A stretch of DNA of 64,000 nt from a virus (IMGVR_UViG_3300002026_000057); one strand, 5' to 3'; positions 6,023 to 47,913 are shown, numbered from the stretch's first letter. Numbers and translations: made by a program. Notes: generated from the letters alone by a model not told the origin.

Positions 6023-6295
6023 ATTAGTTAAATATACAGAAATTTAGGGTATTAATCAAATAAACTTAATATTTTTCTATGGTCTTGGTGAAACTGAAGA
6101 CCCTTTAGGTGGTATTGTAAAGTTCCAAAAGGGAGGTGAATGGTTGTTGTTCCGAAAGATATTGCATCTTTGTTTTTTTATGGTACCTTCTTTTAATTTC
6201 TCTATCGATATGATATCATCAACATTACTATCTGTATTTACCTTGTTTCGGTACAGAATGTATTCCACCAAATAAATATTTATTTTTTATATTTA

Positions 6296-6324
6296 ATAAA
6301 AAGGGGGAAATAACCCCCCCCTTT
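6296..6324. terminator. GC hairpin GGGGG-AAATAA-CCCCC with A/T flanks
   Basis: Stem-loop with flanking A- and T-runs between minus-strand genes. Confidence 0.5.
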
Positions 6325-6346
6325 CTTCCGATTATCTTCCGATTTT

Positions 6347-7382: not shown

Positions 7383-7499
7383 TTGGTATCCGGGATCAAG
7401 GTCAGCCCGTGTTACTGTTACTAATTTAACTTACTTCATGACTAATAGTTTTTAATTGTTTATGTATATTAATAAATACTTAGAGATACAAATATAAAC

Positions 7500-7527
7500 A
7501 AAATATTTGGATTTCCAAATATATTTT
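7500..7527. promoter_or_regulatory. inverted repeat AAATATTTGGA-TT-TCCAAATAT upstream of the 7382 gene start
   Basis: 10/11-bp palindrome in an AT-rich leader. Confidence 0.35.
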
Positions 7528-7614
7528 TAAAAAAAAAGTGGGGTGGAGTGCTTTATTTTATTGCTACTCGCTATCCCCACATTTTAACAGTTCAAAGTAC
7601 TGCTAGACTATCAT

Positions 7615-7821
7615 TTATGGTAACAGTTTAAATTTCCCTGTCACCTTTTCAAATAATTCTCCATTACTTACAAGAGATCCATAATAGTCAGCCTTTTCAT
7701 AAGCGTCTTCGTGATACCTTGCTTTTACGTAGAATGTTCGAACTCTGCCACTCGTAAGGGTGAGTTCAACCAACCAATACTTCATTGGTGGTTTTTTGGT
7801 CTTCTTTTTATTGTTAACCAT
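7615..7821 (-). CDS. hypothetical protein (68 aa)
   Basis: ORF. GTGGGG...CCCCAC hairpin downstream at ~7555-7600. Confidence 0.35.
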   Translation of the reverse strand: MVNNKKKTKKPPMKYWLVELTLTSGRVRTFYVKARYHEDAYEKADYYGSLVSNGELFEKVTGKFKLLP

Positions 7822-7906
7822 AATCTTAATCCAGTCAAATGAATTGACGGATTAAGATGAATTTAAAAAACATTCTTTCATAAAAATAAATATAACAATA
7901 ATTTGG

Positions 7907-8780: not shown

Positions 8781-8805
8781 TATAATAGGTATTTAATTTT
8801 TATTG

Positions 8806-26745: not shown

Positions 26746-26991
26746 TTACCTTTTTTTACCTTCCCATGATCGAGGCTCATCATTTTCTTCTCTCTCATCA
26801 TCGAGTATGTCACGAAACAATTCTTCTTCGGAGATATCCTCAACATCAAGATCCATAAATTCAATTTGATCGATTTGATCGATTTGATTCATCATTTTAA
26901 GATAATATTCAATATCTTCTTTCTGCCGTCTTTGAAGATATTCTTCGTCGTCTTCAAGCTCTTCGTGGTAATAATCACTTGTTTTACTCAT
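26746..26991 (-). CDS. highly acidic small protein (81 aa) with QIDQIDQI repeat
   Basis: Asp/Glu-rich. Contains an in-frame GATTTGATC x3 tandem repeat. Confidence 0.4.
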   Translation of the reverse strand: MSKTSDYYHEELEDDEEYLQRRQKEDIEYYLKMMNQIDQIDQIEFMDLDVEDISEEELFRDILDDEREENDEPRSWEGKKR

Positions 26992-26999
26992 AAATAAAG

Positions 27000-27386
27000 T
27001 TTTTAATAAAATAATTTTTAAATAAAAACTGAGTCACTTAGCGGTGAAGTGTATAGATACAGACAAGATCCACGTCTATGTCAAAGACCTCCCCATACAA
27101 CAAAGACAAAGGCAAAATCTAAGTCTTGTTTTCGCCAGCTAATTGTTCACCACCCTTCTTGGTGGGATAACTTATCTGACTGTTGTGGTGTTTTCTATAA
27201 AACCCACAAAAACTTAAATTTCGTATGAGGAGCGATATAACCATAAAGCTGTTTTCGCAGTGCAGGACTGCAAACACAATTTCATTGCGTTAGATTTTTA
27301 GTCTATATGTAAAAGAACTCCACCACTAAGCACAAAGAAAGATAGAATCGGCTTGTGCTTCGTCTACCTTTCACCTTAGTTTATAA
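27000..27386. ncRNA. candidate structured non-coding RNA: ~390-bp ORF-free, GC-richer island between two minus-strand genes
   Basis: No ORF >=60 aa on either strand. GC is visibly above the surrounding ~30%. Multiple local hairpins. Unique in an otherwise tightly packed region. Confidence 0.3.
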
Positions 27387-28376
27387 TTAGTCCTGATTTT
27401 CAGGAAGTTGTTTTAGGAATATATCAACCACTTCTTGGAAACGTGGGTTGACATCGATACGAAGTGCCGCCACAGTCTTAATTTTAGACTGACGTTCTTT
27501 TTCAAACTCAACTTTAATAGCCTGTTGTTCGGCCGACATCTTTTTAACAGCCAAATCGTACTCGGTACGAAGGTCGTAATTAGTCTTCTCTGCTTTAGAT
27601 TCGGCATCAGCGTTAATGTTTGCAATTCTTGCGTTTTCGGCGGTAACAAGATTATTAACTTTCGCCTTAAAGTAATTTACCTTTTGCTCAAATCCACGGT
27701 GAAGAGCCGCCAATTCTTCATGGAGTTTAAGTAAATCTGAAGATTTATGATGAACTTTAATTTCAACAGGGCTCTTCTCTCCATCTTTAATTGTCATCCA
27801 TTCAATAGCTGGAAGACGTGGAAGTTCGTTTCTCAACACATCTAATGTCGAACCCTTATGAATAAATTGACCAATATGTGAAGCATAGGCTTCAGCTTCC
27901 AAATATTCTCCAAGTTCGCTGACAGTAAGTTGTTCCCAACCATAGTTATCATACACTTCCGGAAGAACTTCAGCACGAACAAATTCTGGTGCTTTAGGTT
28001 GGGTGATATTTGAGAGATCTGGCTTACTTGTTTTTATTGAAACAAGAAGTTCGGTCTTAGCCTTAATATTTTCCATTAAGAAAGCCTGACACGCGTGAAG
28101 TTTTGCTTTTTCGGTAAGAAGTGCAACAACATTTGTTGGTAACGGTTTTGCTGCAACAATTACATGATCTTTTTTTCCAACTTCAACAACTTTTGAATAA
28201 TTGTTGACATTAGTCAATTGATGATTAATTTCAGTTGCTCTTTGATGACAAAGATTTGAAATTGATTGAGCCTGTGAAAGACTTAAACCTGATGTTGAAA
28301 GCGAATTTTTTTTCATTTGTTCTGTGTTTTTAAAAAATATACATATTAAAAAATAAAAAACCAAATATAAAGACAA
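27387..28376 (-). CDS. hypothetical protein (329 aa), coiled-coil C-terminal region
   Basis: ORF. Confidence 0.5.
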   Translation of the reverse strand: MSLYLVFYFLICIFFKNTEQMKKNSLSTSGLSLSQAQSISNLCHQRATEINHQLTNVNNYSKVVEVGKKDHVIVAAKPLPTNVVALLTEKAKLHACQAFLMENIKAKTELLVSIKTSKPDLSNITQPKAPEFVRAEVLPEVYDNYGWEQLTVSELGEYLEAEAYASHIGQFIHKGSTLDVLRNELPRLPAIEWMTIKDGEKSPVEIKVHHKSSDLLKLHEELAALHRGFEQKVNYFKAKVNNLVTAENARIANINADAESKAEKTNYDLRTEYDLAVKKMSAEQQAIKVEFEKERQSKIKTVAALRIDVNPRFQEVVDIFLKQLPENQD

Positions 28377-29868: not shown

Positions 29869-30022
29869 AATGAGCTGGTGGATACCCGTGTTTAGAGATA
29901 TTTCTTTGTCTCAAGGTTCTGTTGTAGATCCTAAAGATGAAATTAAGTAACGATCCGAATATAATAACGAATCCTAACCAGATCCAAAAATTACTAAAAA
30001 TGAATTTTAAAAATTCCCACAT
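29819..30022 (-). CDS. small membrane protein (67 aa)
   Basis: Hydrophobic N-terminal half. Confidence 0.35.
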   Translation of the reverse strand: MWEFLKFIFSNFWIWLGFVIIFGSLLNFIFRIYNRTLRQRNISKHGYPPAHCDADGDFPKKNDEDDE

Positions 30023-30222
30023 TAGATTATGATTTTTTTAATTGATGTAACTTGGATGGGAACCAACCCATCAAATTTTATTACGTACTCAAATAAATGA
30101 ATACCTTTCTCTTGAGCTGGAAGTTCAGTCTCATGAATTGCCTGTTTCCAAATTGGTGAATCATTAAGAGATTTCTTAATGTTATTGTCTTCGATTTTCG
30201 AATATACTTTTATTGTTTCCAT
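30022..30222 (-). CDS. hypothetical protein (66 aa)
   Basis: ORF. ATGA-type overlap. Confidence 0.35.
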   Translation of the reverse strand: METIKVYSKIEDNNIKKSLNDSPIWKQAIHETELPAQEKGIHLFEYVIKFDGLVPIQVTSIKKIII

Positions 30223-30239
30223 AGTTAAAATATAAGTAA

Positions 30240-41942: not shown

Positions 41943-42016
41943 TACGCTCGAAGCTCAAGTGGACGGGCTTCTGGCTTTTAACCAGAAGGTTGTGGGTTCG
42001 AGGCCCACCGGGCGTA
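41943..42016 (+). tRNA. tRNA-Lys (anticodon TTT), canonical length but apparent 8-nt T-loop
   Basis: Acceptor ACGCTCG/CGGGCGT, D-stem GCTC/GGGC, anticodon stem TCTGG/CCAGA, loop CTTTTAA, T-arm GTGGG-TTCGAAGG-CCCAC. Confidence 0.5.
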
Positions 42017-42022
42017 CAAAAT

Positions 42023-42112
42023 GACTCTGTGGCAGAGATAGGCGTGATGCACCAGACTTTTAATCTGGGATCCCCATAAAGGTGTACGTGGGTTCGATTC
42101 CCACCGGGGTCA
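42023..42112 (+). tRNA. tRNA-like, 90 nt, anticodon loop CTTTTAA (UUU) with ~19-nt variable region; identity uncertain
   Basis: Acceptor GACTCTG/CGGGGTC (with G-U pairs), T-arm GTGGG-TTCGATT-CCCAC, discriminator A, anticodon stem CCAGA/TCTGG. Confidence 0.4.
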
Positions 42113-42169
42113 CTTGAGAGTAGAGTTTAGGTATTTTCTGTATCTTGTTTGAACTGAAATATCCAAATC

Positions 42170-42238
42170 GCCGACAATCCAGGGAGACGACGGCTCTGTA
42201 AAAGCCTAGCGCGAAGGTTCAAGATCCTTCTGGCGGCA
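42170..42238 (+). tRNA. degenerate tRNA-like element (acceptor GCCGACA/TGGCGGC, loop CTGTAAA, 8-nt T-loop); possible pseudogene
   Basis: 6/7 acceptor pairing, T-stem GAAGG/CCTTC, but no convincing D-arm. Confidence 0.25.
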
Positions 42239-42303
42239 CATAGGTATCGGTTTTAGGGTTTTTTACTACTTTTTTGGTCCAATGTCCCGAAAAAAAGTAG
42301 AAT

Positions 42304-42386
42304 GGAAAGGTGGTCGAGTGGTTAATGGCACCAGACTGTAAATTTGGTCTCTTCGGAGTTCGGGGGTTCGAATCCCTCCCTTTCCA
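42304..42386 (+). tRNA. tRNA-Tyr (GTA), type II
   Basis: Acceptor GGAAAGG/CCTTTCC, 3-bp D-stem, anticodon stem CCAGA/TTTGG, loop CTGTAAA, variable hairpin CTC-TTCG-GAG, T-loop TTCGAAT, discriminator A. Confidence 0.7.
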
Positions 42387-42393
42387 CAACAAT

Positions 42394-42466
42394 GCATCCG
42401 TAGCTCAATTGGCGGAGCTCGTGACTCTTACTCATGAGGTTGGGGGTTCGATTCCCTTCGGATGCA
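42394..42466 (+). tRNA. tRNA-Lys (CTT)
   Basis: Acceptor GCATCCG/CGGATGC, D-arm GCTC-AATTGGCG-GAGC, anticodon loop CTCTTAC, T-loop TTCGATT. Confidence 0.65.
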
Positions 42467-42472
42467 CAAATC

Positions 42473-42555
42473 ACCATCGTAGTAAAGTGGCCAAATACGC
42501 TTCTCTCATAAGGAAGTCCTTTTTAGGTTCGAGGGTTCGAATCCCTCCGATGGTA
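42473..42555 (+). tRNA. tRNA with anticodon CAT (Met or Ile2) carrying a long variable hairpin (CCT-TTTT-AGG)
   Basis: Acceptor ACCATCG/CGATGGT, anticodon stem CTTCT/GGAAG, loop CTCATAA, T-arm GAGGG-TTCGAAT-CCCTC, discriminator A. Confidence 0.55.
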
Positions 42556-42643
42556 CAAAATGGTGATTATCACCATAATAGAAAAAAGTTTTAAAAAACT
42601 TAAAAAAAAGTTTAAAAAAACTTGGTTATTCCAATACGATTAT

Positions 42644-42669
42644 TTATATTTGTACCATATTTATAATAA
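42644..42669 (+). promoter_or_regulatory. promoter copy B: the same TTATATTTGTACCATATTTATAATAA 27-mer
   Basis: Identical to the 41694-41720 element. Confidence 0.5.
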
Positions 42670-42688
42670 AGATTAAACGCTGAAACAA

Positions 42689-42838
42689 ATGAAAAACATA
42701 ATTGCAATAATTTCAAGGACACAAATATCGTCCCCATCAACGACAAGTAGTCGTAATGGAAATGGTATATTCTGTTCAGACTTTACAGGCAGAAATATTG
42801 CAGACACGGGTTCAGGTGGAAAGGTTGTTTTAAGATAA
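42689..42838 (+). CDS. small ORF B (49 aa, MKNIIAIISRTQISSPSTTSSRNGNG...) between promoter copy B and a terminator
   Basis: Hand-translated. Flanked by the promoter at 42644 and the terminator at 42872. Confidence 0.25.
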   Translation: MKNIIAIISRTQISSPSTTSSRNGNGIFCSDFTGRNIADTGSGGKVVLR

Positions 42839-42871
42839 ACTTTTCCGAAACACACAAACTGAACCCGACAT

Positions 42872-42919
42872 CTGAATAGATAGTCGGGTTTTTTGTTCTT
42901 TGACATATTGGTATTTTGA
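42872..42919 (+). terminator. rho-independent terminator CCCGAC-N13-GTCGGG plus T6, followed by GTTCTTTGACATATTGG
   Basis: Hairpin plus T-run. The tail is shared with the terminator at 41887. Confidence 0.6.
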
Positions 42920-42999
42920 TGAAGTGGCTGAGTGGTTGAAAGCGACAGTCTGCAAAACTGTTTACGAAAGTACTCGTGGGTTCGAATCCCACCTTCATC
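42917..42999 (+). tRNA. tRNA with anticodon GCA (Cys identity, U73) but a type-II-like long variable hairpin (TAC-GAAA-GTA)
   Basis: Acceptor GATGAAG/CTTCATC, 3-bp D-stem GCT/AGC, anticodon stem ACAGT/ACTGT, loop CTGCAAA, T-arm GTGGG-TTCGAAT-CCCAC, discriminator T. Confidence 0.55.
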
Positions 43000-43077
43000 T
43001 CCATTTGGAACGTTCTGTCATTGCTATATCGGGACAGAACACCTCCATAGGGTTGCATGGTTTCCTATGGACCACCT

Positions 43078-43166
43078 GGGTGAGTAGCTGAATTGGCTTA
43101 GCGGGAGGCTGTTAACCTCTGATTGAAAATATTGAAATAAAGTGGGTTCGAAGCCCTCCTTGCCCT
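43078..43166 (+). tRNA. tRNA-Asn (GTT)-like with a 21-nt AT-rich insertion at the variable-loop position
   Basis: Acceptor GGGTGAG/CTTGCCC (with G-U pairs), anticodon stem GGAGG/CCTCT, loop CTGTTAA, insert GATTGAAAATATTGAAATAAA, T-loop TTCGAAG. Confidence 0.45.
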
Positions 43167-43229
43167 CAAATTATAGTTTTGTTTAACTATACTTATAGTT
43201 GATTAATAGAGAATATTTTCAACTGATAT

Positions 43230-43303
43230 TGTCTTGTAGTTCAGCCAGGAAGAACGTTCGGCAGATACCCGAAAGGTCGTTGGTTCAAACCCAATCAAGA
43301 CAA
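43230..43303 (+). tRNA. tRNA, probable Ile (GAT), anticodon loop CAGATAC (A at position 33)
   Basis: Acceptor TGTCTTG/CAAGACA, D-arm GTTC-AGCCAGGAA-GAAC, anticodon stem TTCGG/CCGAA, T-arm GTTGG-TTCAAAC-CCAAT. Confidence 0.5.
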
Positions 43304-43373
43304 CGAGAGAGACCCTTTTTTCTGATTTTTTTTAAAGGACACTTCGGTGGAAGCGTAGAAAAAAGTCTGATAC

Positions 43374-43455
43374 TGTGACGTGGATGAGCGGTTTAGTCAC
43401 CAGTCTGATACACTGGGTGCTTAGCACGACGTGAGTTCGAATCTCACCGTCACAA
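43374..43455 (+). tRNA. tRNA-Ile (GAT) with a 14-nt variable hairpin (GTGC-TTA-GCAC)
   Basis: Acceptor TGTGACG/CGTCACA, anticodon stem CCAGT/ACTGG, loop CTGATAC, T-arm GTGAG-TTCGAAT-CTCAC, discriminator A. Confidence 0.55.
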
Positions 43456-43575
43456 CAAAAGGTTAGTAATCTAGACGCCTAACCAGCTGAAAAGATGAAG
43501 TTTCCTTGGCGAAATTGATCCAAACTGGCACCTGTGGTGGGATGAGAAGTGGTGATAAAGTGACCAAAAACTATA

Positions 43576-43663
43576 AGGAAGAGTGTCCGAGTGGCTTATG
43601 GAGGCGGTCTTGAAAACCGTTGTCCCTGCAAGGGGACCGTGGGTTCGAATCCTACCTCTTCCG
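43576..43663 (+). tRNA. tRNA-Ser (TGA), type II
   Basis: Acceptor GGAAGAG/CTCTTCC, loop CTTGAAA, variable hairpin GTCCC-TGCAA-GGGAC, discriminator G. Confidence 0.7.
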
Positions 43664-43735
43664 CAAAAGGGTAGCTGTTTTTTAGAATTTTTTTATCGAA
43701 CTGAGTAAAGGTATTCGGAAACAAAAAATTCGTTT

Positions 43736-43820
43736 GGAGAGGTGGCAGAGTGGTCTAATGCGGCAGTCTTGAAAACTGTTGGGCTTTCGGGCTCCGGGGG
43801 TTCGAATCCCTCCCTCTCCG
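43736..43820 (+). tRNA. tRNA-Ser (TGA), second copy, type II
   Basis: Acceptor GGAGAGG/CCTCTCC, loop CTTGAAA, variable arm GGGCTTTCGGGCTC, discriminator G. Confidence 0.65.
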
Positions 43821-43934
43821 CAACTGAAAACTATTGGATTGTCTAAGTTTTTTAGTGGCGGAAGTTTAAAGGACAATAAACCGCCCCGGAAAGGTATATA
43901 AAACAGTGAACTTGTTCATTGATTCCGGGAATTT

Positions 43935-44023
43935 GGAAGAATGGGTGAGTGGTTTAAACCAGCGGCTTGCTAAGCCGTCGGGCGGGGTAACCCGCCCCAA
44001 GAGTTCGAATCTCTTTTCTTCCG
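43935..44023 (+). tRNA. tRNA-Ser (GCT), type II
   Basis: Acceptor GGAAGAA/TTCTTCC, loop TTGCTAA, variable hairpin CGGGCGGGG-TAA-CCCGCCCC, T-arm AAGAG-TTCGAAT-CTCTT, discriminator G. Confidence 0.7.
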
Positions 44024-44097
44024 CCATATTTAAAGAAATTTCATTAAAAGTCGCCTGTTTCAGAAACCGATGAGTATTTATAAATAAATAAACATTT

Positions 44098-44517
44098 ATG
44101 AATACAAATGAAAAGGGTAATAGAGGATTGGCAAATGTAATATCTGACGTAATTAATAAGGGGTATTTTATATTTTTACCACTTACGGACACAACAAATA
44201 TTGATATTATAATTGCAAATGAAAAAATGGAAATGTTCAGAGCTCAAGTAAAATATAGTTCTGTTAATAAACATGGAGTTATTAAAGCATCTACATCAAA
44301 TGTTGTTGATAGAAAAAGAGTTTCTGTAAATTTTTCGGTTATTGATTTGTGGGCAATTTATTGTCCTGACACAAGTAAAGTATACTATGTACCAAAAAAA
44401 GAATTGGTAAATAAGTCATCTGGAATGGAATTACGTGTTAATAAACCGAAATTGAATAATCCAAACATACATTTTGCAAATGATTATTTGGATATAAAAA
44501 ATGCGTTGATAAAGTAA
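44098..44517 (+). CDS. hypothetical protein (139 aa) embedded in the tRNA array
   Basis: ORF on the same strand as the tRNAs. No motif identified. Confidence 0.45.
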   Translation: MNTNEKGNRGLANVISDVINKGYFIFLPLTDTTNIDIIIANEKMEMFRAQVKYSSVNKHGVIKASTSNVVDRKRVSVNFSVIDLWAIYCPDTSKVYYVPKKELVNKSSGMELRVNKPKLNNPNIHFANDYLDIKNALIK

Positions 44518-44752
44518 TCAGCCAAATTGGATTATCATTAGCTGATTTCACACGTCAAAACAATGGTCATGACATTGTGGAGATGTTAGGGTTCTGAATT
44601 GCATAAGAGGCTCTATTAATGTTCAGCTGGAAAACTTCCCTGTGTTTGTGTATAGGCAGCACAATAAATACGGGGATATTCTGAGAGACATTTTTAAGGT
44701 GGTTGAAATATCATCGGTAGTGTGAGTATAAGGCTCACTTCAGAACCAAATT

Positions 44753-44825
44753 GGTGTCGTAGCTCAGTTGGTAGAGCGCGGGCCTGAAGAGCCCGGCGTC
44801 GGTGGTTCGAATCCACCCGATACCA
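44753..44825 (+). tRNA. tRNA-Phe (GAA)
   Basis: GGTGTCGTAGCTCAGTTGGTAGAGCGCGGGCCTGAAGAGCCCGGCGTCGGTGGTTCGAATCCACCCGATACCA; clean cloverleaf. Confidence 0.8.
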
Positions 44826-44831
44826 CAATAT

Positions 44832-44905
44832 TCTTGTGTAGCTCAGTTGGTTAGAGCGGCGGACTGTTAATCCGTAGGTCGAAGGTTCAAGTCCTTCCTC
44901 AAGAG
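44832..44905 (+). tRNA. tRNA-Asn (GTT), canonical
   Basis: D-arm GCTC-AGTTGGTTA-GAGC, anticodon stem GCGGA/TCCGT, loop CTGTTAA, T-arm GAAGG-TTCAAGT-CCTTC, discriminator G. Confidence 0.7.
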
Positions 44906-44999
44906 CAATACTGGTTTTTGATCCCGCTTTACCGTTAGGATGCTCAGGCTGAACAGAATACAAAGGAGGAATGACAGGTGTGGAGAGACACACAAATAC

Positions 45000-45071
45000 G
45001 GATTGGTAGCTCAGGGGTAGAGCGCTGGCCTGAAGAGCCAGAGGTCGAAGGGTCAACTCCTTCTCATTCCA
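45000..45071 (+). tRNA. tRNA-Phe (GAA)-like second copy with a divergent T-loop (GTCAACT) and an acceptor mismatch
   Basis: D-arm GCTC-AGGGGTA-GAGC, anticodon stem CTGGC/GCCAG, loop CTGAAGA, T-stem GAAGG/CCTTC. Confidence 0.45.
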
Positions 45072-45273
45072 CAAATGTGGGTTGTCCACCAGTAGAGGTG
45101 GGTACGTAAGTCTGTTATACACGGCAGAGTCCACGCCAAATATCGGGGATGATACACTGTTTTATCACAGTGCCCCGTCCAAAAAAGGACAAGTGAATGG
45201 ATCAATCCCTGTTTCCGCAGGGGGAGATTACCGTCTAGAGTACGGACATTTACATCGGAATTGTCCTTTACTT

Positions 45274-45361
45274 GCAGTAGTCGCCTAGTTGATCGATGGC
45301 ACTGGATTTCCAATCCAGTCAGATAAAGTTCACGTCGAGGGTTTGAATCCCTCCTACTGCT
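45274..45361 (+). tRNA. tRNA-Gly (TCC)-like with an 18-nt variable-region insertion
   Basis: Acceptor GCAGTAG/CTACTGC (7/7), 3-bp D-stem GCC/GGC, anticodon stem CTGGA/TCCAG, loop TTTCCAA, T-arm GAGGG-TTTGAAT-CCCTC, discriminator T. Confidence 0.5.
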
Positions 45362-45720
45362 CTTTTAAGATATCTGGAAATACAGGTTCGAATCCTGTAC
45401 CGCTCCTTCGGGGGAGGTTCGTCTAAGGGATAGGACGCCGGAGCACACGGTCTCCTTTGCTTAGGAATATCGAAGCGGCTACATCTCAATATTAGCTATA
45501 AAAGATGTAGAATGGGTGAAAGTCCCAAGGAGATCAGACTTTCGTGGTCGTGGGTTCGAGCCCCACCGCTACCGTCGGTAGTGTAAGTCTCAGTTGGTAG
45601 AGCTGCGAACCATAAATGTTATTTCTTAGGAACACCAATCACGATGGGTTCGAAACCGTAGTGAAGGTACATTAGAAAGTGTTCTAGCGGGAATAACAAT
45701 GCCTCGGATAATAATAGTAC
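45362..45720 (+). other. cluster of tRNA-like fragments: isolated T-arms, hairpins, and a 3' half (T-arm plus CGCTACC-G) directly abutting a 5' half (GGTAGTG-TA-D-arm) with mutually complementary acceptor strands
   Basis: T-arms ACAGG-TTCGAAT-CCTGT (45381-45398) and GTGGG-TTCGAGC-CCCAC (45556-45572). 3' acceptor CGCTACC at 45573-45579, then TC, then GGTAGTG plus a D-arm-like TCTC-AGTTGGTA-GAGC. GCGAA at 45613 can pair with TTCGT at 45547. Confidence 0.3.
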
Positions 45721-45736
45721 TTAAAAATTCCGGGGT

Positions 45737-45810
45737 CGCGATGTAGCTCAGTTTGGTTAGAGCGCCGCTGCACAAGGCGGAGGTCAGAGGTTCGAATCCT
45801 CTCATCGCAA
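45737..45810 (+). tRNA. tRNA-like with C1.A72 mismatch (initiator-like) and a non-7-nt anticodon loop (CCGC-TGCACAAG-GCGG)
   Basis: Acceptor CGCGATG/CATCGCA, D-arm GCTC-AGTTTGGTTA-GAGC, T-arm AGAGG-TTCGAAT-CCTCT, discriminator A. Anticodon loop is 8 nt (or 6 with a U.G pair). Confidence 0.4.
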
Positions 45811-45815
45811 CTATA

Positions 45816-45900
45816 TGCGAGGTCGACTGGAGTTGGTTCCAGCGGGGGCTCATAACCCCTAACCCTTACGGGAACACAGGTTCGAATCCTGTCCTCGCTA
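45816..45900 (+). tRNA. tRNA with anticodon CAT and a 15-nt variable hairpin (CCC-TTAC-GGG)
   Basis: Anticodon stem GGGGG/CCCCT, loop CTCATAA, D-arm CTGG-AGTTGGTT-CCAG, T-arm ACAGG-TTCGAAT-CCTGT, acceptor GCGAGG/CCTCGC. Confidence 0.5.
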
Positions 45901-45922
45901 CTAATATTTTTTTTAAAATACA

Positions 45923-46009
45923 TGCGGGGTGGTGTAATTGGTTAACACGCTGGGCTCATAACCCAGAGACATCTAATGCTTCGTGTCAGTTCGAATCTGA
46001 CCCCCGCTA
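45923..46009 (+). tRNA. tRNA with anticodon CAT and an 18-nt variable-region insertion; U1.U72 mismatch
   Basis: Acceptor TGCGGGG/CCCCGCT, D-arm GTGT-AATTGGTTA-ACAC, anticodon stem CTGGG/CCCAG, loop CTCATAA, T-arm GTCAG-TTCGAAT-CTGAC. Confidence 0.5.
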
Positions 46010-46014
46010 CAATT

Positions 46015-46087
46015 GCCTATTTAGCTCAGTTGGTGGAGCGTATCCTTGGTATGGATAAGGTCATGGGTTCGAATCCCGTACTAGGCT
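46015..46087 (+). tRNA. tRNA-Thr (GGT)
   Basis: Acceptor GCCTATT/ACTAGGC, D-arm GCTC-AGTTGGTG-GAGC, anticodon stem TATCC/GGATA, loop TTGGTAT, T-arm ATGGG-TTCGAAT-CCCGT. Confidence 0.65.
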
Positions 46088-46131
46088 CATTCTCGTTTTT
46101 CATATATTTATGGATATAAAAAATTAAAACT

Positions 46132-46374
46132 ATGTTCAAAAAATTATGGGAAAATATTAAGGCATGGTGGATTAAAACCGCCGAACCTTGGTTAAAGAAA
46201 AGTTGGATGCAAATTGTAAATATCATTGTAATGTTCATTGCATATGGTACAACCGATTCACTTCCATGGGTACAAGCAATTGTAGGATTGTGGTTGTTCC
46301 TTCTTTTGGGATATTATATTTTCTGGAAACTCTTTGGAGCGGAAAAAATGTTCAAAAAGGATATCACAACGTAA
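46132..46374 (+). CDS. small 2-TM membrane protein (80 aa) inside the tRNA array
   Basis: Trp-rich hydrophobic helices. Followed by a strong terminator. Confidence 0.45.
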   Translation: MFKKLWENIKAWWIKTAEPWLKKSWMQIVNIIVMFIAYGTTDSLPWVQAIVGLWLFLLLGYYIFWKLFGAEKMFKKDITT

Positions 46375-46398
46375 AACAATTATTTTTACAGTATGGGT

Positions 46399-46430
46399 AA
46401 ACCCCAATTATACTGTAATTGGGGTTTTTT
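46399..46430 (+). terminator. rho-independent terminator ACCCCAATTA-TACTG-TAATTGGGGT plus T6
   Basis: 10-bp stem plus T-run right after the 46132..46374 ORF. Confidence 0.7.
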
Positions 46431-46433
46431 ATT

Positions 46434-46518
46434 GCCGATGTGGCATCAGCGGTCGACTGCGCCTGACTTGTAATCAGGATCTTAAACGGCAACGGGGGTT
46501 CGAATCCCTCCATCGGCT
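46434..46518 (+). tRNA. tRNA-Thr (TGT) with ~15-nt variable-region expansion
   Basis: Acceptor GCCGATG/CATCGGC, 3-bp D-stem, anticodon stem CCTGA/TCAGG, loop CTTGTAA, T-arm GGGGG-TTCGAAT-CCCTC, discriminator T. Confidence 0.5.
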
Positions 46519-46592
46519 CCATCCCTTCGGGGATCCCCGGCTTTTGGTGCTGGTAACACCTTGTAACCGATAACAATTAAAAACTACCAAAT

Positions 46593-46667
46593 GCGATAGT
46601 AGCTCAGTTGGTTCAGAGCGGGACCTTGCCAAGGTCCAGGTCGTGGGTTCGAGCCCCATTTATCGCT
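46593..46667 (+). tRNA. tRNA-Gly (GCC)
   Basis: Acceptor GCGATAG/TTATCGC, D-arm GCTC-AGTTGGTTCA-GAGC, anticodon stem GGACC/GGTCC, loop TTGCCAA, T-loop TTCGAGC, discriminator T. Confidence 0.7.
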
Positions 46668-46672
46668 CAATT

Positions 46673-46745
46673 GCGAAAGTAGCTCATTTGGTAGAGCATC
46701 AGCCTTCCAAGCTGAGGGTGGCGAGTTCAAGCCTCGTCTTTCGCT
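46673..46745 (+). tRNA. tRNA-Gly (TCC), canonical
   Basis: Acceptor GCGAAAG/CTTTCGC, D-arm GCTC-ATTTGGTA-GAGC, anticodon stem TCAGC/GCTGA, loop CTTCCAA, T-arm GCGAG-TTCAAGC-CTCGT. Confidence 0.7.
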
Positions 46746-46974
46746 CCAAGTATTCTTCATAACTCAGAGGATTCATCGCGCCAGAAATGGTGAGGAACTT
46801 CAGGACATCACTGCCAAATGCGGGAGGGTTAAAACCCGTTATCACCGCAGAGGATGCAACCCAAAAAAGCTTAGACGGCAAGCAGGTCTATAATAGTAAG
46901 GTTGGGGCTTAGACAAATGATGAAACAAAACAGAAACCTGGGTACGCTCAAGTTATGATTTATTTTGATTAATA

Positions 46975-47048
46975 GGATCATTAGCTTAATTGGTAAAAGC
47001 AGAACACTCATAATGTTAAGAGTAACGGTTCGATCCCGTTATGATCCA
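46975..47048 (+). tRNA. tRNA with anticodon CAT (Met/Ile2), canonical length
   Basis: Acceptor GGATCAT/ATGATCC, D-arm GCTT-AATTGGTA-AAGC, anticodon stem GAACA/TGTTA, loop CTCATAA, T-arm AACGG-TTCGATC-CCGTT, discriminator A. Confidence 0.6.
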
Positions 47049-47478
47049 CAAATAAATAATATTTAATATTGTAATAAAGGTCTTGGATCCTTCAAAGATA
47101 ATATTGAATATCTCACGAATGCTATAAAATATTTAAAATAAAAATATCTCATACAACCATATCCCGAAACTATTTATATATGTAGTTTCATAAAATTCTA
47201 AATTAATAAAAATGAAAGATTGTGAACCGTATAAACAGAAACAAAACAGCAACATTGTTCCTTTTCTTAGGAACATTTTTCAATCCTTTAGGATACGATG
47301 CTCTCCTAAAATTCTTAATCGATACGACAGGCAGTTATTGGTTTTCAATTTCCATTTTCTACCTATTGTCAGTAGTTTGCTTTATCTCTTACTTTGTTTT
47401 AGCTAAAGTAAACCCATTAAAACTCTTTACAAGAAAAAGAGATTTATCTTAGGATATTAATTTCTTTTTCTTTATATT

Positions 47479-47553
47479 TGCACCCGTAGCTTAATTGGAT
47501 AAGCATCACTCTTCTAAAGTGAAGTCATATGAGTTCGAGCCTCATGGGGTGTT
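47479..47553 (+). tRNA. tRNA-Arg (TCT)
   Basis: Acceptor GCACCCG/GGGGTGT (one mismatch), D-arm GCTT-AATTGGATA-AGC, anticodon stem TCACT/AGTGA, loop CTTCTAA, T-arm ATGAG-TTCGAGC-CTCAT. Confidence 0.55.
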
Positions 47554-47566
47554 CTAATTAATTGAT

Positions 47567-47710
47567 ATGTCTACAACTATATGTCCAAAATGTAAACAAC
47601 CACTTATTACAATAGATAAAGATTACGTTATTTGTTGTGATGAGGTAATATACGTGATAAATGATATTCACAATTCAAAAAATGAATCACGTCTTGAAAT
47701 ATCAAGATGA
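47567..47710 (+). CDS. small zinc-ribbon ORF (47 aa, MSTTICPKCKQPLITIDKDYVICCDE...)
   Basis: Hand-translated. CPKC...CC cluster. Below the ORF-track cutoff. Confidence 0.25.
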   Translation: MSTTICPKCKQPLITIDKDYVICCDEVIYVINDIHNSKNESRLEISR

Positions 47711-47849
47711 AAATAATAAATGGATTTCAGTAAATGGATATGCATTTATTGATAATTGGGGACATTGTATAATAATTGTTTATGGCGAAGGTCGTAGAGA
47801 TGCACTTAATCAACATTTAATAAAAACGCTCCCATATTTCAACGGATAG
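47661..47849 (+). CDS. hypothetical protein (62 aa); partly overlaps the zinc-ribbon ORF, so the true start is uncertain
   Basis: ORF track. Its C-terminal codons (…YFNG*) coincide with repeat copy 1 of the tRNA-3'-like element. Confidence 0.3.
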   Translation: MIFTIQKMNHVLKYQDENNKWISVNGYAFIDNWGHCIIIVYGEGRRDALNQHLIKTLPYFNG

Positions 47850-47893
47850 AATTAGAATTTCCTAAATTTTAGATACAGGTTCGATTCCTGTTG
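47830..47893 (+). repeat. tRNA-3'-half-like repeat, copy 1 (TTCAACGGATAGAA...TTTTAGATACAGGTTCGATTCCTGTTGGGAG)
   Basis: T-arm-like ACAGG-TTCGATT-CCTGT with no matching 5' half. ~80% identical to the 48308-48365 copy. The two copies flank the GNAT gene. Confidence 0.5.
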
Positions 47894-47913
47894 GGAGTAC
47901 AAAAAATATTAGT

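What the first reader, a model, noticed from the sequence alone, without database searches (positions are those of the whole stretch)
27000..27386. ORF-free, GC-enriched ~390-bp island: candidate structured ncRNA
Genes are tightly packed everywhere else on the minus strand. This segment has no ORF >=60 aa on either strand and visibly higher GC than its surroundings. It contains several local stem-loops, for example CACC-N9-GGTG and GAGTCACTTAGCGGTGAAGTG. It lies between two minus-strand genes and is too long to be a simple promoter/terminator spacer. Large structured ncRNAs (GOLLD, ROOL, HEARO-like) are repeatedly found in phage genomes.
Basis: seen in the sequence. Interest (0 to 1): 0.6.

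Follow-up and report, generated by a model that had tools for sequence, protein, structure and literature searches.

The report
New phage RNA tied to one gene
The gene-free stretch encodes a real, previously uncatalogued ~350-base folded RNA that always sits directly behind one conserved gene of unknown function in very large uncultivated phages, so the two probably work as a pair.

Summary
Window 26992-27386 has no ORF of 60 aa or more and is not coding in any frame or under single-stop recoding. It folds far better than shuffles on the minus strand (z -5.5).

It is a structured RNA on the minus strand, about 27023-27381. The same element occurs in more than 130 distinct phage and metagenome loci. 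A 24-sequence alignment gives 56 base pairs, 48 of them with compensatory changes. 95% of cells are paired, against 41-48% when partners are slid. G·U outnumbers A·C by 131 to 7, which fixes the strand.

The fold is a 5' hairpin with a conserved loop, then a long interrupted rod closed by the two ends and followed by a U-run. An inner junction carries two more hairpins, and in-phase GNNUUU hexamers line the 3' strand.

Rfam 15 and ARAGORN find no known family: not GOLLD, ROOL, HEARO, tmRNA, RNase P or an intron.

The RNA lies 2-40 nt behind a 309-aa orphan protein (X) in 135 of 137 loci, down to about 25% protein identity, while all other neighbours change. The best reading is a new RNA-protein cassette. 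Its function is unknown and was not tested here.

The parts
27023..27381 (-). Whole structured RNA element. The 5' end lies about 5 nt after the stop codon of gene X. The 3' end is at the U-run after the closing helix.
   Evidence: An nhmmer profile of relatives matches 27378-27024. MFE z is -5.5. Covariation.
27387..28316 (-). Gene X: a 309-aa orphan protein, the invariable upstream partner of the RNA. The mechanical ORF extends to a TTG at 28376, but homologues start at MKK (28316).
   Evidence: 2244 homologous clusters, all unnamed, no Pfam or PHROG hit. 647 clusters at 50% identity. AF2 pLDDT 83.5 with no fold match. The RNA follows X in 66 of 68 and 69 of 69 loci.
27371..27377 (-). Conserved single-stranded leader AAGGUGA, directly 5' of P1.
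   Evidence: GGU is invariant in 56 sequences. The leader is also present in distant loci L159 and L160. Genes of this phage lack Shine-Dalgarno sites.
27337..27372 (-). P1: an 11-bp hairpin (27362-27372 with 27337-27347). Its conserved apical loop GAAGCACAAGCCGA (27348-27361) holds a 2-bp GC/GC mini-helix.
   Evidence: All 11 pairs show compensatory changes and 97% of cells are paired. Loop residues are invariant or nearly so.
27318..27332 (-). P2 5' strand (UGCUUAGUGGUGGAG) of the long-range closing helix.
   Evidence: 15 of 15 pairs show compensatory changes and 98% of cells are paired.
27035..27049 (-). P2 3' strand (CUUCACCGCUAAGUG), the partner of 27318-27332.
27240..27290 (-). Variable side arm (P2a) branching from the rod. 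Its length and sequence differ between relatives. In L036 it carries a permuted tRNA-like module.
   Evidence: Alignment gaps. MFE. The L036 module hits Rfam YrlA at 38.4 bits, E 6e-5, below the gathering score.
27224..27232 (-). P3 5' strand (CUCCUCAUA), preceded by the invariant CGC.
   Evidence: 9 of 9 pairs show compensatory changes.
27089..27097 (-). P3 3' strand (UAUGGGGAG).
27184..27208 (-). P4 hairpin (UGUGGGUUU...AAACACCACA), subtype A. A second clade has CUGAGAUAGAACUCA here instead.
   Evidence: 6 of 9 pairs show compensatory changes. The two subtypes are seen.
27134..27180 (-). P5 composite hairpin. The outer helix is GUCAG/CUGGC, the middle helix UAA/UUA, and the tip CCCACC-AAGAAG-GGUGG(UG).
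   Evidence: The outer helix covaries in 56 sequences (for example UA:20 CG:15 AU:11 GC:3). Inner helices.
27098..27125 (-). F strand: four or five in-phase hexamers (GACUUA GAUUUU GCCUUU GUCUUU GUUGUA) between P5 and the P3 3' strand. It is conserved in sequence and mostly unpaired in the predicted ensemble.
   Evidence: The motif recurs in distant loci L159-L162.
27050..27087 (-). G strand: five or six in-phase hexamers (UCUUUG ACAUAG ACGUGG AUCUUG UCUGUA UCUAUA). Together they form the 3' strand of the rod between P3 and P2.
   Evidence: In 17 of 18 independent MFE folds it pairs collinearly with the A-rich 5' segment just upstream of P3. This pairing rests on thermodynamic prediction and is not proven by aligned covariation.
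27023..27034 (-). Tail ACUCAGUUUUUA: a U-run after the closing helix, the probable transcript 3' end.
   Evidence: A U-run follows P2 in most relatives. Where it is missing, a separate hairpin-plus-U terminator follows.

Best explanation
The segment encodes a new family of structured non-coding RNA of about 320-400 nt, on the window's minus strand.

It is most likely transcribed as the 3' part of the mRNA of the upstream gene X. It ends at its own closing helix plus U-run, or at a separate terminator where the U-run is missing.

The fold starts with a 5' hairpin that presents a conserved loop. A long interrupted rod follows, made by pairing of the two halves (P2, P2 extension, P3). An inner junction carries P4, P5 and a conserved U/G-rich strand. 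GNNUUU hexamers are phased along the 3' strand.

The RNA and the 309-aa protein X are inherited together as a two-part cassette while every other neighbour changes. The most likely mechanism is therefore that X binds this RNA and the two act as one ribonucleoprotein during infection.

Shown here: the RNA fold, the strand, the conservation and the linkage to X. Inferred: co-transcription, the X-RNA interaction and any downstream role.

In some clades the cassette lies inside tRNA islands, and one member carries a YrlA-like tRNA mimic. These are weak pointers to tRNA- or translation-related biology.
For: Fold:
- Minus-strand z is -5.5.
- Of 56 consensus pairs, 48 show double compensatory changes.
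- 95.1% of cells are paired against 41-48% for slid partners. The covariation score is 0.655 against 0.18 or less, and 0 of 500 shuffles reach it.

Strand: G·U/U·G 131 against A·C/C·A 7 in paired cells.

Not coding:
- Every sense frame has at least 2-3 stops in every member.
- The median longest ORF is 40 aa, with inconsistent strand and frame.
- Only 62 of 339 gap runs are multiples of 3.

No known family: Rfam 15 at gathering score and at E up to 10, and ARAGORN.

Linkage to X:
- About 40 loci found by a DNA pattern alone all have X directly upstream on the same strand.
- 66 of 68 distinct IMG/VR and other loci carry the RNA a median of 11 nt after X. 69 of 69 metagenome loci carry it a median of 7 nt after X.
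- Distant X homologues (about 21-31% identity) again have a 320-520 nt gap with the same architecture.
- None of 18 neighbouring window genes recurs near X in 84 loci.

Termination: a U-run or a separate terminator lies downstream.

Protein X: an orphan family with many invariant polar residues along an 80-Angstrom helix.
Against: - No direct evidence that X binds RNA. X has no known RNA-binding domain, pI 6.8, and only generic coiled-coil structural matches.
- No transcript data, so promoter use, processing and RNA ends are inferred.
- Tight synteny is also expected for a cis-acting 3' UTR.
- In L021 and L031 another ORF separates X from the RNA, so physical adjacency is not absolute.
- The P2 extension and the state of the F strand rest on thermodynamic prediction only.
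- The tRNA-island context is absent from the window's own clade: 0 of 80 loci.
Confidence: 0.55

Rival explanations
1. Cis-acting 3' UTR. The fold serves only the X mRNA, as a terminator, a 3'-exonuclease block, or an operator through which X or another factor controls X expression. On this reading it has no trans function.
For: The RNA always starts 2-40 nt after the X stop codon on the same strand. It ends with a helix plus U-run or is followed by a terminator. No independent promoter is evident.
Against: - About 350 nt with five covarying helices, invariant loop sequences and phased hexamers is far more than stabilisation or termination needs.
- In many relatives a separate canonical terminator follows anyway.
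- The element persists when another ORF is inserted between X and the RNA (L021, L031).
- The element is kept down to about 25% X identity.
Confidence: 0.2
2. An autonomous ornate phage RNA that works without X, in the manner of ROOL and GOLLD (RNA-only assemblies). On this reading the linkage to X reflects only shared transcription or shared timing.
For: - The RNA is phage-encoded, large and multi-helical.
- In 35 of 71 IMG/VR loci tRNA genes lie nearby on the same strand, some 2-24 nt away.
- One member has a tRNA-like insert.
- ROOL and GOLLD are described as phage RNAs often near tRNA islands, with tRNAs sometimes in the GOLLD linker and no protein partner known (bioRxiv 10.1101/2024.12.08.627333).
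Against: The near-absolute pairing with X across deep divergence and changing neighbourhoods is not a feature of ROOL or GOLLD. There is no Rfam match. The window's own clade shows no tRNA linkage.
Confidence: 0.15
3. Replication-related element. The transcript primes DNA synthesis, or the DNA (or single-stranded DNA) acts as an origin with X as its initiator. The TTTGNC hexamers would then be iteron-like sites.
For: X lies in a DNA-metabolism region in the window (Dda-like helicase, methyltransferase, NUDIX). In L159 it lies next to a PIF1/Dda helicase and RNase H. The hexamer repeats are conserved.
Against: - Helices are kept through G·U pairs on one strand only (131 against 7), which points to RNA rather than duplex DNA.
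- The replication-gene context is not conserved.
- There is no GC-skew turn at the locus.
- A 6-bp repeat does not fit one face of B-DNA.
Confidence: 0.04
4. A highly diverged member of a known RNA family (Y RNA/YrlA, 6S RNA, tmRNA, RNase P RNA, an intron) that the models fail to detect.
For: The RNA has a rod formed by its 5' and 3' ends, as in Y RNA and 6S RNA. L036 carries a module that matches YrlA positions 23-85 (38.4 bits, E 6e-5).
Against: - There is no hit at E up to 10 in the window's element or in six other members.
- The YrlA-like piece is an insert in one member's variable arm and scores below the gathering score of 69.
- X has no TROVE/Ro60 domain.
- ARAGORN finds no tmRNA.
- The element does not interrupt a gene.
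Confidence: 0.04
5. A protein-coding gene hidden by a frameshift, a non-ATG start or stop-codon recoding. The window does encode a UAA-reading suppressor tRNA.
For: A tRNA with anticodon UUA lies at 8805-8877.
Against: - All frames carry mixtures of the three stops.
- Reading any single stop as sense opens no ORF through the element.
- No frame is open across relatives, and indels are not in threes.
- The substitution pattern is compensatory base pairing.
Confidence: 0.01

Closest known systems
ROOL and GOLLD RNAs (large ornate phage/prophage RNAs)
   Same: Both are phage-encoded, large, multi-helix RNAs of unknown function supported by covariation. In several clades this RNA sits in or next to tRNA islands, and one member has a tRNA-like insert in a variable linker. 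The ROOL and GOLLD context is as described in bioRxiv 10.1101/2024.12.08.627333.
   Different: - Smaller: about 320-400 nt against about 580 nt for ROOL (my own knowledge) and more than 800 nt for many GOLLD members.
- No match to their Rfam models.
- A different architecture: one long rod plus a small inner junction.
- Strictly coupled to a protein gene, whereas no protein partner is known for ROOL or GOLLD.
Ro60 (Rsr) with Y RNA / YrlA
   Same: The layout is alike: a protein gene followed on the same strand by its ncRNA, with the RNA's 5' and 3' ends forming a long stem (my own knowledge of the family). One member (L036) carries a permuted tRNA-like module that matches the YrlA model.
   Different: X has no TROVE or vWA domain and no fold match. 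The YrlA match is below threshold and confined to an insert in one member. The RNA is two to three times longer than Y RNAs.
TnpB/IscB with omega-RNA (RNA partner cut from the 3' end of the protein's own mRNA)
   Same: The structured RNA partner is encoded immediately 3' of the protein gene and is probably co-transcribed. The analogy is cited from PMC10278001, seen.
   Different: X has no RuvC or other nuclease domain. No guide segment or transposon ends are evident. The cassette is not flanked by IS features.
6S RNA
   Same: A rod-like RNA formed by pairing of the two halves, with internal loops (my own knowledge).
   Different: It is twice the size, with an inner multi-helix junction instead of a central bubble. 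There is no Rfam 6S match.

Membership tests
GOLLD / ROOL / HEARO / OLE / raiA (large ornate RNAs in Rfam) | Match to the family covariance model at or near its gathering score | tested here: not met
   cmscan of the whole window at gathering score finds only tRNAs. A scan of 26800-27600 at E up to 10 gives only chance miRNA and snoRNA hits. Seven related loci at E up to 1 give no such family.
GOLLD / ROOL | Phage or prophage location, often near tRNA islands | tested here: inconclusive
   The location is phage-only: only 5 mis-binned MAG contigs in 185,579 genomes. tRNAs are nearby in 35 of 71 IMG/VR loci but in 0 of 80 loci of the window's clade. In the window the tRNA array is 15 kb away.
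Y RNA / YrlA with Ro60 | Adjacent Ro60 (TROVE-domain) protein | tested here: not met
   X and 25 distant homologues have no Pfam domain. The AF2 model has no fold match.
Y RNA / YrlA with Ro60 | Match to the YrlA covariance model, including the tRNA-like domain | tested here: not met
   Only L036 1629-1689 matches, covering model positions 23-85 of 114 at 38.4 bits against a gathering score of 69. The window's RNA has no hit.
tmRNA | tRNA-like ends plus a tag reading frame, as detected by ARAGORN | tested here: not met
   ARAGORN reports 27 tRNAs and no tmRNA in the window. The 'CTCCACCA' is the complement of the P2 strand.
RNase P RNA, 6S RNA, group I/II introns, riboswitches | Rfam covariance-model match; for introns also interruption of a host gene | tested here: not met
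   No hits. The element lies between complete genes.
Intrinsic terminator | G+C-rich hairpin followed directly by a U-run | tested here: inconclusive
   The simple scan finds none on the minus strand here. The 15-bp P2 helix is followed by ACUCAGUUUUUA, and most relatives have a U-run or a separate terminator. No 3'-end mapping is available.
Structured ncRNA (generic) | Conserved secondary structure with compensatory substitutions, strand-specific G·U pairs, and no coding signal | tested here: met
TnpB/IscB omega-RNA systems | RuvC-type nuclease protein upstream of the RNA | tested here: not met
   X has no OrfB_IS605, RuvC or HNH domains. A TnpB-like gene downstream in L028 is a separate insertion.

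The most novel reading that the evidence does not exclude
X and this RNA form a previously unknown phage ribonucleoprotein. The long rod, with its phased GNNUUU hexamers, would be the binding track for the conserved polar stripe on the 80-Angstrom helix of X. The conserved P1 loop and inner junction would engage a host RNA machine such as tRNA processing, the ribosome or RNA decay. That would make it a non-Ro analogue of Ro60-Y RNA, widespread in huge phages of sediments, lakes and sludge.
Probability: 0.3. Interest if true: 0.85.

Novelty: new variant of a known kind. Interest (0 to 1): 0.72.

Why it matters
Large, intricately folded RNAs with strong covariation are rare, and each class found so far (RNase P, OLE, GOLLD, ROOL, HEARO/omega-RNA) has led to new biochemistry.

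This class is absent from Rfam 15. It also comes with a built-in handle, a single orphan protein that always accompanies it.

That pairing makes the function directly testable. One can co-express the two parts, pull down the complex and image it. The result would also assign a role to one of the most conserved unknown genes of huge uncultivated phages.

Tried and rejected
- **Recoding or a hidden gene.** Six-frame translation with stop types, single-stop read-through and family-wide ORF and indel statistics all came out negative.
- **Known RNA families.** Rfam at gathering score and at lax E-values on the window and on seven relatives, plus ARAGORN, gave nothing. The one exception is a sub-threshold YrlA hit in one member's insert.
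- **Cultured phages.** Neither blastn nor tblastn found a match in 50,697 GenBank phage records.
- **Function of X.**
  - Pfam and PHROGs on X and on 25 distant homologues found nothing.
  - A PDB sequence profile found nothing.
  - afdb50 was not available.
- **Alternative pairing of the AAGGUGA leader with the P2 5' strand.** By inspection of the alignment, the leader does not change when P2 covaries, as in L015 and L027, so this was rejected.
- **Conserved neighbourhood.** None of the window's 18 neighbouring genes recurs.
- **First DNA pattern for a collection scan.** It was too T-rich and returned many chance hits. The true hits were recovered by nhmmer.
- **Searches for distant relatives.** Protein-pattern scans with three distant X homologues in viral contigs found nothing. 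The distant alignment was too variable for a metagenome scan.
- **Consensus folding of the rod between P2 and P3.** MAFFT cannot align the variable 5' strand, so this pairing rests on per-sequence folds only.
- **Literature.** No description of this RNA was found.

Full report
**1. The observation**

The segment 26992-27386 lies between two minus-strand genes. One is an 81-aa acidic protein (26746-26991). The other is a 309-aa protein, here called X (27387-28316). The mechanical ORF for X runs on to a TTG at 28376.

- The longest ORFs in the gap are 59 aa (+) and 52 aa (-).
- All six frames carry mixtures of TAA, TAG and TGA. Reading any single stop codon as sense opens no frame through the element. 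This matters because the window encodes a UAA-reading tRNA.
- GC of the core is 0.385. The window as a whole has 0.337, and other non-tRNA spacers have 0.25-0.31. The enrichment is real but modest.
- Other ORF-poor gaps exist in the window, so 'tightly packed everywhere else' is overstated.
- The minus strand folds to -116.6 kcal/mol against -85.0 +/- 5.7 for dinucleotide shuffles (z -5.5). The plus strand gives z -3.5.

**2. It is conserved, and conserved as RNA**

No cultured phage record matches the DNA or the neighbouring protein. A search of IMG/VR with protein X returned 33 loci from very large phage contigs, up to 675 kb. In nearly all of them blastn finds the element directly downstream of X at 58-78% nucleotide identity. 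An ORF-free gap of about 320-450 nt is present each time.

RNAalifold on 24 sequences predicts 56 pairs, of which 48 show compensatory double changes. Counted independently:

- 95.1% of cells are standard pairs, against 41-48% when the 3' partners are slid by 1-3 columns.
- The covariation score is 0.655, against 0.18 or less for the slid versions.
- None of 500 column shuffles reaches the observed values.

In paired cells, G·U and U·G occur 131 times and A·C and C·A 7 times. The functional strand is therefore the one aligned, which is the window's minus strand, and the molecule is RNA rather than duplex DNA.

Across 56 members every sense frame has at least 2-3 stops. The median longest ORF is 40 aa with no consistent frame. 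Only 62 of 339 gap runs are multiples of three. The element does not code for protein.

**3. Anatomy (window coordinates, minus strand)**

- **Leader:** AAGGUGA (27377-27371), single-stranded and conserved.
- **P1:** an 11-bp hairpin (27372-27362 with 27347-27337). Its nearly invariant apical loop is GAAGCACAAGCCGA.
- **Linker:** a CUUUG-type linker follows P1.
- **P2:** a 15-bp long-range helix (27332-27318 with 27049-27035) that closes the whole molecule. It is followed by ACUCAGUUUUUA.
- **P2a:** a variable side arm (about 27290-27240).
- **P3:** a 9-bp long-range helix (27232-27224 with 27097-27089).
- **P4:** a hairpin (27208-27184).
- **P5:** a composite hairpin (27180-27134). Its outer helix covaries in the 56-sequence alignment.

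Two clades differ at P4. One has UUUGUGG...CCACAA and the other has CUGAGAUAGAACUCA.

The 3' half is striking. About twelve hexamers of the form GNNUUU run in phase. Four or five lie before the P3 3' strand (the F strand, 27125-27098) and five or six lie after it (the G strand, 27087-27050).

In 17 of 18 independent folds of clade-B members, the G strand pairs collinearly with the poorly alignable A-rich 5' segment just upstream of P3. The molecule is therefore best drawn as one long interrupted rod (P2, P2 extension, P3) capped by a junction of P4, P5 and the F strand. This part rests on thermodynamic prediction. MAFFT cannot align the 5' strand, so aligned covariation for it is lacking.

Conserved blocks predicted to be unpaired are the P1 apex, the CUUUAU linker, ACCG before P3, the A-rich joiner after P3 and much of the F strand.

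**4. No known family fits**

- Rfam 15 at gathering score finds only tRNAs in the window.
- A lax scan of the element (E up to 10) gives only chance miRNA and snoRNA hits.
- ARAGORN finds no tmRNA.
- Seven related loci scanned at E up to 1 give one notable result. In L036 the variable arm holds a permuted tRNA-like module: a T arm, a capped acceptor stem and a D arm, which I first noticed by eye. It matches the tRNA-like part of the YrlA (bacterial Y RNA) model at 38.4 bits (E 6e-5), below the gathering score of 69. This is an insert in one member, not a family trait.

**5. The key finding: a two-part cassette**

A DNA pattern taken from the RNA alone recovered about 40 further IMG/VR loci. 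Every one has an X homologue immediately upstream on the same strand.

| Locus set | Loci with at least 400 nt downstream of X | With the RNA on the same strand | Distance from X to the RNA |
|---|---|---|---|
| IMG/VR and other loci (distinct) | 68 | 66 | median 11 nt |

- Both exceptions in the first set involve distant X homologues.
  - L159 has a recognisable divergent copy of the RNA.
  - L164 has an inserted ORF, and the contig ends just as an AAGGUG leader begins.
- Distant X homologues (about 21-31% identity) fetched from other assemblies again have a gap of 320-520 nt behind the gene. The gap has the same plan: leader plus P1, a closing helix plus U-run, GUCUUU-type phased hexamers and a P3 equivalent.
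- In contrast, none of 18 genes that flank X in the window recurs near X in 84 loci.
- In L021 an RHS-repeat ORF is inserted between X and the RNA, and in L031 a 95-aa ORF. The order and strand are kept in both.

**6. Protein X**

- 2244 clusters at 90% identity and 647 at 50% identity. All are about 300 aa and all are unnamed.
- No Pfam or PHROG family, even for distant members.
- No PDB sequence relative.
- The AlphaFold2 model (pLDDT 83.5) shows two repeats of helix, beta-hairpin, long helix. One helix has 54 residues.
- Many polar residues (His, Arg, Asn, Gln, Lys) are invariant along the long helix.
- The pI is 6.8, so X is not an obviously basic nucleic-acid binder.
- X occurs only in phage-like contigs. 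Among 185,579 reference genomes, only five short MAG contigs carry it.

**7. Context**

- Genes in the window lack Shine-Dalgarno sites, and some are preceded by TAnnTTTG-like motifs. This points to a Bacteroidota-like host.
- Around X the window encodes a Dda-like helicase, a methyltransferase, a NUDIX protein, a PNK-like ATPase, a PfkB kinase and a cupin. This context is not conserved.
- In 35 of 71 distinct IMG/VR loci, tRNA genes lie nearby, almost always on the same strand. Some are 2-24 nt after the RNA or just before X. The window's own clade shows none within 1.5 kb.
- ROOL and GOLLD are described as phage RNAs often near tRNA islands, with tRNAs sometimes in the GOLLD linker (bioRxiv 10.1101/2024.12.08.627333). 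The parallel is partial.
- Where the U-run after P2 is missing, a separate hairpin-plus-U terminator follows. This supports transcription through the element in the X direction.

**8. Interpretation**

Firmly shown: this is a new, widespread, strand-specific structured RNA that is genetically locked to X.

Most likely (about 0.55): it is made from the 3' end of the X transcript and acts together with X as an RNP.

Rivals:

| Rival explanation | Confidence |
|---|---|
| Purely cis-acting 3' UTR | 0.2 |
| Autonomous ornate RNA, like ROOL or GOLLD | 0.15 |
| Replication primer or origin | 0.04 |
| Diverged known RNA family | 0.04 |
| Hidden protein-coding gene | 0.01 |

The biochemical role is unknown. 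The tRNA-island context in some clades and the YrlA-like insert are weak hints toward tRNA or translation biology.

No publication describing this RNA was found. The large viral survey by Fremin et al. reports elements of 151 nt or less, and its supplementary files could not be checked.

**9. Verdict**

The element is a genuine, uncatalogued large ncRNA with an obligate protein companion. It is of high interest to RNA biologists and directly testable.

Noticed in passing
window 41944-47900 (+): An array of 26 tRNA genes. One of them (45737-45811) gets an aberrant two-base anticodon call from ARAGORN.
   Followed up: no
window 8805-8877 (-); also L023 3849-3926 and L055: A tRNA with anticodon UUA, which would read the UAA stop codon. 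In L023 and L055 the same kind of tRNA sits just upstream of gene X. Whether any gene is recoded was not tested. Genes in this window look intact in the standard code.
   Followed up: partly
window 7431-7906 (-): An ORF-poor gap whose fold has z -6.96. It holds a 15-bp perfect hairpin and a GUGGGG...CCCCAC plus U9 terminator. It probably contains a gene of under 80 aa plus terminators, but it could hide another RNA element.
   Followed up: partly
L036 1629-1689: A permuted tRNA-like module (T arm, capped acceptor stem, D arm) is inserted in the RNA's variable arm. It matches the Rfam YrlA model at 38.4 bits, E 6e-5, below the gathering score.
   Followed up: yes
L028 5486-6922; L021 5014-6420: In L028 a TnpB-like gene (Cas12f1-like_TNB, OrfB_IS605) lies right after the RNA. 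In L021 an RHS-repeat ORF is inserted between X and the RNA.
   Followed up: no
window 27390-27405 (-) and relatives: In the window's clade the last codons of X (..LPENQD) form a 5-bp hairpin CCUGA-NNN-UCAGG just before the stop codon. This may be a further 5' helix of the RNA or a by-product of the conserved peptide.
   Followed up: no
whole window: 46 of 55 genes lack any Shine-Dalgarno-like motif, and some are preceded by TAnnTTTG-like motifs. These are Bacteroidota-type expression signals. The contig belongs to GenBank WGS project JFJP01.
   Followed up: partly
window 27387-28316 (-), residues 192-245 of X: A 54-residue helix carries a stripe of invariant polar residues (H199, H206, R207, E210, N214, K219, N222, T225, N228, R230, N235). 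By my own arithmetic, the 6-nt RNA repeat (about 17 Angstrom in A-form) equals about 11 helix residues. This match was not tested.
   Followed up: no
window 29911-30239 and 6044-6346 (-): Two other ORF-poor gaps show no unusual folding (z -1.5 and -1.25). The second contains a G8/C5 hairpin-plus-U terminator.
   Followed up: yes
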